Positions 17,954 through 39,036 of a stretch of 64,000 bases of DNA are shown here, in pieces. A program made the position numbers and the translations under genes. Origin of the DNA: a virus; IMG/VR virus record IMGVR_UViG_3300028029_000006, positions 216,236-280,235 of that record; one strand, written 5' to 3'. Below the pieces are notes generated by a model that worked only from the letters and a program-made list of their open reading frames with translations, made no database searches and was not told the origin of the DNA. How positions within the stretch are numbered: position 1 is the first letter of the stretch; each line of letters starts with the position of its first letter.

Positions 17954-18577
17954 ATGGCACATTTAGATTCTAAAGAAGTTGATATCACTAAGCAAGATAT
18001 TGTAGATGCATTGAGACAACCAGCTAACTTTGCTTATTCTGGTCACAATGAAGACATGTTTCATACTTGGTCATTGGGACCAATTATTTTGAATCATGAT
18101 TCATGCCTTGTTGATGAATCTAATTATGATATGCTTGAGAAACATCTTGAATCTGATGAAAGTTTATCAGAAGAGTGGGCAATTACTAGGTGTTCATTTT
18201 GGGGTGATGGTTGGGTTGATCATATTAGTTTTCGAGCTATCGAAGATTTTAAAAATGATGATGACCCAAAGGTTCCAACGAGAATTTTCCGAGTGTTAAC
18301 AGAATGGTTTGATACATTAAAAGAATCTTTTATTCTCAATGAGATTGATTATAGTAACAAGATTTTTGAAGCTACAATTGAAAATATTGGTAACGTTGGT
18401 CTTTGTATGACCAAAGATGAGATTCCAGATGATTGGATTAGCAAATGTTATTCTTGGTTTGAATCTAATTGTCCTAATGAGATTGAGGACACAGATGGTT
18501 TCGGTGGTTATCCAAGCGATGATAAAATGAAAGAGTGTTTGGGTGAGTTGGGTTTTCTAGAAGAGGAAGGTTATTAA
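17954..18577 (+). CDS. Hypothetical acidic protein
   Basis: 207-aa ORF. Confidence 0.85.
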   Translation: MAHLDSKEVDITKQDIVDALRQPANFAYSGHNEDMFHTWSLGPIILNHDSCLVDESNYDMLEKHLESDESLSEEWAITRCSFWGDGWVDHISFRAIEDFKNDDDPKVPTRIFRVLTEWFDTLKESFILNEIDYSNKIFEATIENIGNVGLCMTKDEIPDDWISKCYSWFESNCPNEIEDTDGFGGYPSDDKMKECLGELGFLEEEGY

Positions 18578-18859
18578 ATGTATACTTATATTATTGGTTT
18601 TATTGTTAATTTAATTCTTATGGCAGTAATTATTAGATGGTTACCTATTGGTAAGTTAGCAAGGCTTGTAATTAAAACAGCTGAAAATGATGCAGCTAAA
18701 GCTCATTTTACTATTATGATAATTGGAGGGCCAATTACTGTATTTGCTATATTTTTTTACACATTTTTCAATCTAATTGCTTTTCCAAAGGAGAAAACAA
18801 TCCCTGAAGTAGAAGAGAAGAAGAGCGAATATAGAGACTGTGCTAAAAAAGAAAGTTAG
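18578..18859 (+). CDS. Putative membrane protein
   Basis: Two hydrophobic segments; the stop codon is within hammerhead stem II. Confidence 0.75.
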   Translation: MYTYIIGFIVNLILMAVIIRWLPIGKLARLVIKTAENDAAKAHFTIMIIGGPITVFAIFFYTFFNLIAFPKEKTIPEVEEKKSEYRDCAKKES

Positions 18860-18919
18860 GACGAAACATGCTTTGATTAGCATGTATAATGGTATGAAGC
18901 CTTTACTGATGAGTCCCAA
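18856..18919 (+). ncRNA. Type II hammerhead ribozyme
   Basis: TTAGGAC-GAAA-CATGCT/AGCATG-TA, stem I TAATGGT/GCCTTTA, CTGATGA-GTCCCAA. Complete core; predicted cut after 18886. Confidence 0.88.
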
Positions 18920-19102
18920 ATCACGCACGTATGCACAACAACTTAGTTAAGATAATCTGATTAAGTTGGGTTGCGGTTTATGTAATTATCTTGGGAGATA
19001 TTTATGTGAGCGAGGTAGAGGTGAAAAAACTGTTAACAACAATGATGATAGATTGTTAATTGGCCACAAGATCATCTGGCATTCATGCATGAGTGTCATT
19101 AT

Positions 19103-19214
19103 GCCTGACTGGTTTGTGGAGTTGTATTGATTTCCGGGTTTTGTTATATTCATAGATGCACTTGCTTTGATTTTCAATACGATTTTATCGAAGGTTCAAA
19201 TCCTTTGACAGGCT
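19103..19214 (+). ncRNA. tRNA-like RNA with no D-stem and an extended central arm (same family as 5941)
   Basis: GCCTGAC/GACAGGC acceptor (1 mismatch), linker ending GTGG, AGTTGTATTGA/TCAATACGATT helix, T-arm GAAGG-TTCAAAT-CCTTT. Confidence 0.55.
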
Positions 19215-19243
19215 CTAGTTAAATAACAAATAAGAAAGATAAC

Positions 19244-19477
19244 ATGACAGAACATATTAAGTGGCCAAAGATTACATCATTTCATAATGTACGAAAGGCA
19301 GTTAACAAATACCCTGAACTTTGTGGTACTAGTTTAAAGATTTCTTACATAGCTAAAATTAAGCTACACGGAACGAATTCGGCAATTCAGATTTCATCTA
19401 AAGATAATTCTGTTGTAGCTCAAAGTCGCTCTAGTAAGTGTCGGCTTTGGTATGTGGATAAAATCAATACTAGATAG
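19244..19477 (+). pseudogene. N-terminal fragment of an Rnl2-type RNA ligase
   Basis: Motif I KIKLHGTNSAI and following AQSR; only 77 aa; later ligase motifs absent. Confidence 0.75.
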
Positions 19478-19693
19478 ATAAAATCAATGCTACATAGACT
19501 GTGTTGGTTGGTGAGCCCACACGGCTTCGCTCAATAGCGTATGGCGGTAGCTAGCAGGCCCTACAAAGCCTCCCGTCACCTATGGCAGGGCCCACCATGG
19601 CGGCACGGTATGCCGGCCGTGTTCGCGCTGTGGTTAAAATGAAGTTAAGATGGTTTTTGGCGCTGCTGATCACAAATTATATAAAGGTTTTGA

Positions 19694-34427: not shown

Positions 34428-34498
34428 GTATCAATAGATTAATGGTAAATCAATTCATTCTAAACGAATTATTGCAAGTTCGATTCTTGCTTGATACA
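34428..34498 (+). tRNA. tRNA with CUA anticodon (amber-suppressor-type)
   Basis: GTATCAA/TTGATAC acceptor; GATT/AATC D-stem; ATTCA-TTCTAAA-CGAAT (one A-C mismatch); T-arm GCAAG-TTCGATT-CTTGC. CTA at 34460-34462. Confidence 0.75.
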
Positions 34499-35584
34499 CA
34501 ACGGAGAATAAAATGGCTAAAAGAAAAAAGAAACGTAAAAAGAGAATCAAAGTAAGGAATTCTTTTTTTAGTGTAATGATGAGACGTTATCCTAGAAAAC
34601 AGATAATGAAAAATAGAAACAAGAAACGTTCTGATAATAAAAAGAATCATTGGATGAAAGATTGGGAATGATTTATAGAACACAATATAAACCCGCAGTT
34701 AATAAAAACAAATCTTTAAAAGTAAAGCTTCATAAGTTATGGTGCCACAAATTAAATATTGGTAAATGGCGTGGTGAAGTTGAAGGTTGGATTGATGAAG
34801 GTATTGTAATGGCTGGTTATCGATGTCATAAATGTGATGAGCTTGAAGGTATTCATGAAGCTCATAGAAGATGGCCAAGACCTGGCAGTTTAGGCTCTTG
34901 GTATTCTAAGTGTGTTAGTACTAATTGGGGAAGGAGTTTAGGAATTGACTAATTATTTAATTTTTATATGGAGTACTTTTTGTGGTATAGGTTTATTTGG
35001 TGCAATCTATATTGCTTATGAAGCTACTACATATTAATACAAATGTAGTATATGAAGGTTGTTTAATTAGCCATGGGATAGGAGATCATAGCGATGGTGC
35101 ATGTGATGCTTTGTGTTATGGAACTGCTAATTACAGTGGAATCATTTGTAAGTGTAAAAAACAGATGAGCGGCAATTGTACAGAAGAAATGTTGAATGAA
35201 AGTAAAAAGTAAATGGAACGTAACTGTACTGAAATTAGATCTGTAGCAGGTGAAAGTAAATATGCAGAATTCGATCCAGAGTTTGGATTCTGGGGTGTGT
35301 TCGGTGAGGACTCGGGGTTCTGTTTTGGTCAGTTTAACACAGAAGAAGAAGCAGAAGCTCATTGCTAGCAATTAAAAAGAAAGAAAATAATTATACGTGG
35401 ATTAAAAAGTGAAGACCTTGTTGGGAAAACTATTAAAAAAATTAATGTTGACTGCGTCAATGTTGTTACGTTAACATTTGAAGACGATTCCAAATTGGAA
35501 GTTTACGCAGAAGTAACTCGTTTACCTAATTGTGTTGGGGAATTTGGAATCATTGTAACACCTGAATAATAAGAAAGATAAAAT

Positions 35585-38745: not shown

Positions 38746-39036
38746 ATGAAAATTTGGTTGGATGATGTTAGAGAAGAACCAGAAGGTTGGGTTAGATGTT
38801 ACTGGCCTGAAGAGGTAATTGCTTTATTGAAAACCAATGAGGTAGAGATTATCAGTTTGGATCATGATTTAGGAGATGATGATCATGGTACTGGCTATGA
38901 TGTTCTTCTTTGGATTGAGAAGCAAGTGGTATTAAATAATTTTAATTATCCTGAAATGATAATTCATTCTGCGAATATTTCTGCTAGACATAAAATGAAT
39001 CTGGCAATATTCTTTATTGAAACGAGAAAAATATGA
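38746..39036 (+). CDS. Cyclic-phosphate-processing receiver-domain protein
   Basis: KIWLDDVR...ISLDHDLG...TGYDV...IHSAN. Confidence 0.82.
   Translation: MKIWLDDVREEPEGWVRCYWPEEVIALLKTNEVEIISLDHDLGDDDHGTGYDVLLWIEKQVVLNNFNYPEMIIHSANISARHKMNLAIFFIETRKI

What the first reader, a model, noticed from the sequence alone, without database searches (positions are those of the whole stretch)
18856..19477. Hammerhead ribozyme heading a structured RNA, a tRNA mimic and an RNA ligase gene
Seen: complete type II core with GUA cleavage triplet (cut after 18886) overlapping the upstream stop codon. It is followed by about 200 nt of hairpins, the 19103 tRNA-like RNA and an Rnl2-type ligase start. Known: hammerheads leave 2',3'-cyclic phosphate and 5'-OH ends. 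Inference: the ribozyme plus RNase P excise a defined RNA (about 18887-19102), possibly tied to end-healing. A cyclic-phosphate receiver protein lies at 38746. Rnl2 alone cannot join such ends, and this copy is truncated.
Basis: partly seen in the sequence, partly recalled or inferred. Interest (0 to 1): 0.8.

Follow-up and report, generated by a model that had tools for sequence, protein, structure and literature searches.

The report
Hammerhead-headed small phage RNA before tRNA
A self-cutting hammerhead motif in this giant phage is most likely the front end of an uncatalogued ~220-base folded RNA that also sits just before a tRNA gene in a very distant phage, while the neighbouring RNA-ligase gene is a broken bystander.

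Summary
The type II hammerhead (18859-18916, cut after 18886) is real in sequence: complete core, the only strict match in the 409-kb genome, none in 40 shuffles. Activity is untested. The ligase link fails. The Rnl2-like gene has an in-frame internal deletion (first ~63 plus last ~13 codons remain), no intact relative examined has a hammerhead upstream, and the phage has an intact Rnl1 elsewhere. A distant 144-kb, 60%-GC phage lineage (two variants) has the same layout: hammerhead, ~150-nt four-way junction, hairpins, short linker, tRNA, 228 nt from cut to tRNA versus 216 here. That complete genome has no Rnl1, Rnl2 or RtcB. In both lineages a downstream strand re-pairs with hammerhead stem I, with compensatory changes. 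Best reading: the hammerhead makes the 5'-OH end, and RNase P at the tRNA the 3' end, of an uncatalogued small RNA that refolds over its own ribozyme core. Only two lineages were found, the second was picked by eye, and blind searches did not single it out. The scan has reported other hammerhead-led phage RNAs on other DNA; none shares sequence words with this one.

The parts
18578..18859 (+). 93-aa hydrophobic ORF; its TAG stop overlaps hammerhead stem II (the usual arrangement for phage type II hammerheads)
18859..18916 (+). Type II hammerhead ribozyme; predicted cut between 18886 and 18887; U.U mismatch in stem I; no clear pseudoknot
18887..19035 (+). Four-way-junction domain of the 3' cleavage product: P1 18900-06/19015-21 (re-pairs hammerhead stem I), 5' closing stem 18887-93/19029-35, P2 18910-12/18921-23, P3 18924-27/18972-75 with inner hairpin, P4 18976-85/19002-11
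19036..19102 (+). 3' hairpins and 4-5 nt linker to the tRNA-like RNA; strongest hairpin 19077-19098; same position in the homologous cassette, sequence not alignable
19103..19214 (+). tRNA-like RNA: acceptor stem (6 of 7 pairs), intact T arm, U73, no D stem, 13-bp central helix, UCC triplet at 19133-35 plus a 36-nt insert; predicted RNase P site at 19103
19244..19477 (+). Rnl2-family RNA ligase remnant, 77 aa: N-terminal ~63 aa (with motif I lysine) fused in frame near 19432-35 to the last ~13 aa; neighbour, not part of the cassette
5941..6098 (+). Paralogous D-stem-less tRNA-like RNA with longer central insert, also preceded by a hairpin and short linker, but no hammerhead

Best explanation
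The element is a portable phage RNA cassette: hammerhead, structured ncRNA, tRNA. Step 1 (sequence shown, activity inferred): the type II hammerhead folds first during transcription and cuts after 18886, freeing the downstream RNA from the upstream message with a 5'-OH end. Step 2 (inferred from folding and covariation): about 100 nt later a complementary strand re-pairs with stem I and the start of the core, so the 3' product refolds into a four-way junction built partly from the spent ribozyme; this makes the cut one-way. Step 3 (inferred from established RNase P specificity): RNase P cuts at 19103, giving a linear ~216-nt RNA (5'-OH, 3'-OH) and a separate tRNA-like RNA. The most likely role of the released RNA is a stable phage-encoded scaffold or decoy for a host RNA-binding protein during host takeover; no partner was identified, so this last step is a guess (about 0.35). 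The adjacent ligase remnant plays no part.
For: Complete core, unique in genome, above chance. 14 of 18 consensus hammerheads were active in PMC3088659. Same layout in a 144-kb, 60%-GC phage sharing only 7 proteins with this genome: cut-to-tRNA 228 vs 216 nt. The two 3' products, folded separately without constraints, give the same P1-closed junction; RNAalifold picks P1 unprompted. Of 27 pairs, 8 show two-sided changes; 98.8% of cells pair versus 25-62% in slid controls; P1 has 2 compensatory and 1 wobble change. At one column P1 stays paired where stem I is broken. A 7-bp anti-stem-I strand preceded by GA occurs in only 3 of 227 other phage type II hammerheads. In a third copy (L277) the RNA is 91% identical, the downstream gene 78%, and the upstream gene is replaced; three changes in the 3' hairpin all keep pairing.
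Against: Only two independent lineages. The second was noticed by eye among 58 hammerhead loci; plain alignment ranked it 2nd-3rd of 54 and a model built from this window alone missed it. With three related rows the shuffle control is not a probability. Stem I here has a U.U mismatch, no clear pseudoknot was found, and the full-length precursor favours the inactive fold by 4-7 kcal/mol, so cleavage could be slow. No expression or cleavage data. The tRNA partner differs: canonical tRNA-Arg(UCU) there, an aberrant tRNA-like RNA here.
Confidence: 0.6

Rival explanations
1. Regulated switch: the downstream domain is not a product but an allosteric control. When P1 forms (on ligand or protein binding, or with fast transcription) it disables the hammerhead, setting how much tRNA precursor and downstream mRNA is released.
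For: P1 is mutually exclusive with stem I; in both lineages the active fold loses once the anti-strand is transcribed; invariant unpaired junction bases could bind something. PMC3088659 raises regulated phage hammerheads as a possibility.
Against: The anti-strand lies ~100 nt after the complete ribozyme, which is the preferred fold until then, so cleavage has a head start; the 5' closing stem is flush with the cut site, as expected for a product; conservation extends to 3' hairpins beyond P1.
Confidence: 0.2
2. Ordinary polycistron-punctuating hammerhead that only separates a tRNA precursor from the upstream mRNA; the resemblance to the other phage is coincidence and the hairpins are a neutral leader.
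For: Such hammerheads are common in phages (76 loci with the identical core) and usually follow a stop codon; blind homology tests failed; Rfam has nothing here.
Against: Needs several coincidences at once: tRNA at the same distance, same junction order, covarying P1 (background about 1-3%), shared junction motifs, and higher conservation than flanking genes in the L026/L277 pair.
Confidence: 0.13
3. One reading: ribozyme, cargo RNA, tRNA mimic and ligase form an end-healing or circularisation module, for example to circularise the cargo or splice out the 36-nt insert.
For: Adjacency on one strand; the tRNA-like RNA has an insert in its anticodon loop; one intact relative (L002) lies near a tRNA, RtcB and cREC, so this ligase family can sit in RNA-repair neighbourhoods.
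Against: The ligase lacks its catalytic middle; no hammerhead cassette upstream of intact relatives L002, L003, L004, L009, L010; the homologous cassette sits in a complete genome without Rnl1, Rnl2 or RtcB. Rnl2 needs 5'-phosphate and 3'-OH (PMC7824862), and the excised RNA would have 5'-OH and 3'-OH, which neither Rnl2 alone nor RtcB joins (established enzymology).
Confidence: 0.07

Closest known systems
Type II hammerhead ribozymes of bacteria and phages (Rfam RF02276; Perreault et al. 2011, PMC3088659)
   Same: Permutation, full core, short stem II, place right after a stop codon in a phage small-gene cluster.
   Different: No clear loop I/3'-tail pseudoknot; below Rfam threshold; followed by a conserved folded RNA that re-pairs with stem I, whereas most of the loci inspected lead straight to a ribosome-binding site and a gene.
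Theta (HDV-like) ribozymes beside phage tRNAs (Kienbeck et al. 2024, PMC10879173)
   Same: Small self-cleaving ribozyme co-transcribed with a phage tRNA.
   Different: Theta ribozymes are HDV-like and are proposed to trim the tRNA 3' trailer; this is a hammerhead ~220 nt upstream whose cut does not make a tRNA end.
GOLLD and ROOL RNAs (PMC12286853)
   Same: Structured phage ncRNA of unknown function next to tRNA genes.
   Different: Far shorter (~220 nt; many GOLLD exceed 800), no Rfam match, headed by a ribozyme.
tmRNA tRNA-like domain (for the 19103 RNA)
   Same: Acceptor stem plus T arm, D loop without stem, long central helix, short linker to the T arm.
   Different: No G3.U70 or A73, no message domain (43-nt loop only), not called by ARAGORN or Rfam as tmRNA.
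T4 RNA ligase 2 family (PF09414; PDB 2hvq)
   Same: Intact relatives match PF09414 and T4 Rnl2 over nucleotidyltransferase and C-terminal parts; the remnant is 57-66% identical to them.
   Different: This copy has lost about three quarters of the protein by an internal deletion.

Membership tests
Type II hammerhead ribozyme | Core CUGANGA and GAAA with UH cleavage site in type II order | tested here: met
Type II hammerhead ribozyme | Three helices around the core, I and III capped, II open | tested here: met
   4, 7 and 6-of-7 pairs; 4 two-sided changes against the homologue
Type II hammerhead ribozyme | Loop I / 3'-tail pseudoknot (in a majority, not all, per PMC3088659) | tested here: not met
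   longest complement 3 bp; a non-canonical contact is not excluded
Type II hammerhead ribozyme | Score above Rfam RF02276 gathering cut-off | tested here: not met
   no hit here; 25.3 bits against 37 for the homologue
Type II hammerhead ribozyme | Mg-dependent self-cleavage | not testable with these tools
   needs in vitro assay
Canonical tRNA (19103 RNA) | Acceptor stem, T arm, discriminator and CCA position | tested here: met
   6 of 7 acceptor pairs, 5-bp T stem, canonical T loop, C at 74 as in most of this genome's tRNAs
Canonical tRNA (19103 RNA) | D stem and 7-nt anticodon loop | tested here: not met
   no D stem, 43-nt loop; no Rfam RF00005 hit at E 10
tmRNA | Alanine identity (G3.U70, A73) and a tag-coding domain | tested here: not met
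   C3-G70, U73; no tmRNA call
Rnl2 RNA ligase | Sequence homology including motif I lysine | tested here: met
Rnl2 RNA ligase | Complete nucleotidyltransferase and C-terminal domains | tested here: not met
   77 aa against 339-358 aa
GOLLD / ROOL / other Rfam families | Match to the family covariance model | tested here: not met
k-junction / kink-turn | Tandem G.A pairs next to a three-way junction (PMC10573300) | tested here: inconclusive
   P1 ends in invariant GA facing GA, but the junction has four helices; resemblance only
Bacterial Y RNA | Ro60-binding stem and linkage to a Ro60/TROVE gene | tested here: inconclusive
   no Rfam hit; no TROVE match in G000 or G001; the 624-aa candidate scores only as vWA

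The most novel reading that the evidence does not exclude
A new family of small phage RNAs, spread between very distant phages, in which the spent 3' half of a hammerhead is itself a structural part of the mature RNA: the same nucleotides are selected for two exclusive folds, ribozyme first and four-way-junction ncRNA after, with a tRNA or tRNA mimic as the 3' processing tag.
Probability: 0.5. Interest if true: 0.72.

Novelty: new variant of a known kind. Interest (0 to 1): 0.55.

Why it matters
The job of most bacterial and phage hammerheads is unknown (PMC6765202). This case offers a specific, cheap test: a hammerhead that defines the 5' end of a conserved small RNA and is then dismantled by a built-in complementary strand. 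If true it adds an uncatalogued phage ncRNA family and a natural two-fold RNA. The RNA-repair story that raised the first score does not hold.

Tried and rejected
Rfam at gathering and E 10: nothing for the hammerhead, the middle RNA or the tRNA-like RNA. Assembly artefact at the ligase junction: rejected; one 4.1-kb contig of run X1 (possibly the source) and a 257-nt contig of run X3 (another study code, depth 2) cross it without differences. No RNA holder listed; not evidence on expression. Rest of the ligase elsewhere in the genome: not found. Pattern searches for close copies of the hammerhead or tRNA-like RNA in IMG/VR: none. blastn against GenBank phages: nothing significant. Two-sequence model on about 190 loci and four virus records: no new member except L277. 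Plain alignment and a one-sequence model did not single out L026. T-arm-like hits in L060/L085 lie inside a coding gene and are chance. Synteny through the upstream 207-aa gene: relatives at 40-49% identity, no conserved neighbourhood. Sigma-70 promoter and terminator scan: promoters at chance level, no terminator near the cassette. A 54-codon TTG ORF at 18966-19130 and a tmRNA-tag-like reading of it were considered and dropped: no counterpart in the homologue. Host not determined. Seven paper searches found no description of this RNA; the library lacks most subscription papers.

Full report
Setting. The window is bases 216236-280235 of a 409-kb virus record, about 32% GC, with some two dozen tRNA calls. 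The finding lies in a long run of small, co-directional genes.

The hammerhead. All core bases and three stems are at the stated places. The isolated motif folds into the active shape, with stem II and III pair probabilities above 0.9 and a weaker stem I holding one U.U mismatch. It is the only strict match in the genome, and 40 block-shuffled genomes gave none. Rfam misses it, as it nearly misses the homologue below. No clear pseudoknot was found; Perreault et al. report one in a majority of type II hammerheads, not all, and found 14 of 18 tested consensus hammerheads active (PMC3088659). I put the chance of real cleavage at about 0.75. The overlap with a stop codon is the usual arrangement.

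The ligase. The 77-aa ORF is 57-66% identical to 339-358-aa PF09414 proteins, whose profile matches T4 Rnl2. Alignment shows the first ~63 residues joined in frame to the last ~13, so this is an internal deletion, not a truncation. Contigs from two runs cross the junction unchanged. No other piece exists in the genome, but an intact 382-aa Rnl1 lies 82 kb away; there is no RtcB. Upstream DNA of five intact relatives holds no hammerhead cassette; one of them, L002, sits near a tRNA, RtcB and cREC. cREC at 38746 is real but distant, and its role is a prediction (PMC7824862).

What the hammerhead heads. Among 58 distinct phage hammerheads with the same core, one locus (L026 = L041, a complete 144-kb, 60%-GC phage) has a tRNA at a like distance. 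It shares only seven proteins with this genome and encodes no Rnl2, Rnl1 or RtcB. From cut site to tRNA it measures 228 nt against 216 here. Folded separately, both 3' products give a junction closed by P1, in which the 3' strand of stem I plus the first core base pairs with a strand about 100 nt downstream; RNAalifold finds P1 unprompted. A third copy, L277, was reached through a neighbouring protein: RNA 91% identical to L026, downstream gene 78%, upstream gene replaced. On the three rows the refolded structure has 98.8% of cells paired and 8 two-sided changes in 27 pairs, against 25-62% and 0-1 in slid controls; the ribozyme fold has 4 in 17. The same two stem I positions covary with both partners, and at one of them P1 is kept where stem I is broken here. 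A comparable anti-stem preceded by GA occurs in 3 of 227 other phage type II hammerheads.

Limits. The match was spotted by eye. Plain alignment ranks L026 only second or third of 54 and a model from this window alone misses it. The structure was derived from these sequences, and there are two independent lineages only. I rate the homology at about 0.8. Wider searches found no more members.

The tRNA-like RNA. 19103-19214 has an acceptor stem, a canonical T arm and U73, but no D stem; the would-be D and variable strands extend a 13-bp helix capped by a 43-nt loop that begins with a Gly-UCC-like anticodon. A canonical tRNA-Gly(UCC) exists elsewhere in the genome. A paralogue with the same plan lies at 5941-6098 without a hammerhead. 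It resembles the tRNA-like domain of tmRNA in shape but lacks alanine identity and a message domain. Since the homologous cassette uses an ordinary tRNA-Arg, what the two share is an RNase P substrate, which points to a 3'-end-forming role (inference).

Mechanism. Shown: the motif, the layout in two lineages, covariation for both folds, the broken ligase. Inferred: cleavage during transcription, before the anti-strand appears (the active fold is preferred until then and loses afterwards); refolding of the 5'-OH product; RNase P cutting at 19103. Guessed: a scaffold or decoy role. A 5'-OH/3'-OH RNA is not a substrate for Rnl2 alone or for RtcB (established enzymology; PMC7824862), so circles are not expected. 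The main rival is a regulated switch using P1.

Comparison. It works like other phage hammerheads that process transcripts, and like theta ribozymes in being tied to a tRNA (PMC10879173), but it acts on the 5' side and far from the tRNA end. It resembles GOLLD and ROOL only in context (PMC12286853). Earlier notes of this scan describe other hammerhead-led phage RNAs, some near tRNAs; I could not compare their sequences, and look-ups by sequence found no shared words outside this genome. Verdict: a new variant of a known kind; interest 0.55.

Noticed in passing
window 19457-19496: Imperfect 20-bp tandem duplication of the ligase gene's last codons; each copy ends in a TAG stop.
   Followed up: partly
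window 19497-19640: GC-rich island (up to 64% GC) right after the duplication; single copy; not better folded than shuffles; shares short palindromic words with the GC-rich stretches at genome 214.3-215.9 kb where GC skew flips. It follows the gene end and does not replace the gene's middle.
   Followed up: partly
G000:C1:214300-215900: GC-skew switch with GC-rich patches holding two sigma-54-like (-24/-12) motifs by eye and several T-arm-like hairpins; candidate origin or genome-end region.
   Followed up: no
window 5941-6098: Second D-stem-less tRNA-like RNA, preceded by a hairpin or pseudoknot; its insert shows weak similarity to the 19103 insert.
   Followed up: partly
window 34428-34499: tRNA with CUA anticodon (amber suppressor-like), although TAG ends 45 of 435 long ORFs.
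   Followed up: no
G000:C1:365100-366100 (L118): Cluster of enlarged tRNA-like RNAs sharing a short motif, downstream of a 624-aa vWA protein that does not score as TROVE.
   Followed up: partly
G000:C1:317427-318575: Intact 382-aa Rnl1-family RNA ligase, next to an adenylylsulfate-kinase-like gene.
   Followed up: yes
L002:786-6690: Repair-like neighbourhood in another phage: Ku, cREC, RtcB, tRNA-Leu, intact Rnl2-like ligase.
   Followed up: partly
L106 and L112: GC-rich phages with a type II hammerhead, a small ORF and then a compact T-arm-bearing RNA; a different layout from this finding.
   Followed up: no
L277:4139-4156 and the same place in L026: Perfect 16-bp palindrome just upstream of the hammerhead, between promoter-like hexamers; the transcript may start at the ribozyme's 5' edge.
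   Followed up: no
L012: Long array of small genes in strictly alternating orientation with ~70-bp spacers, carrying a relative of the 207-aa gene at 17954.
   Followed up: no
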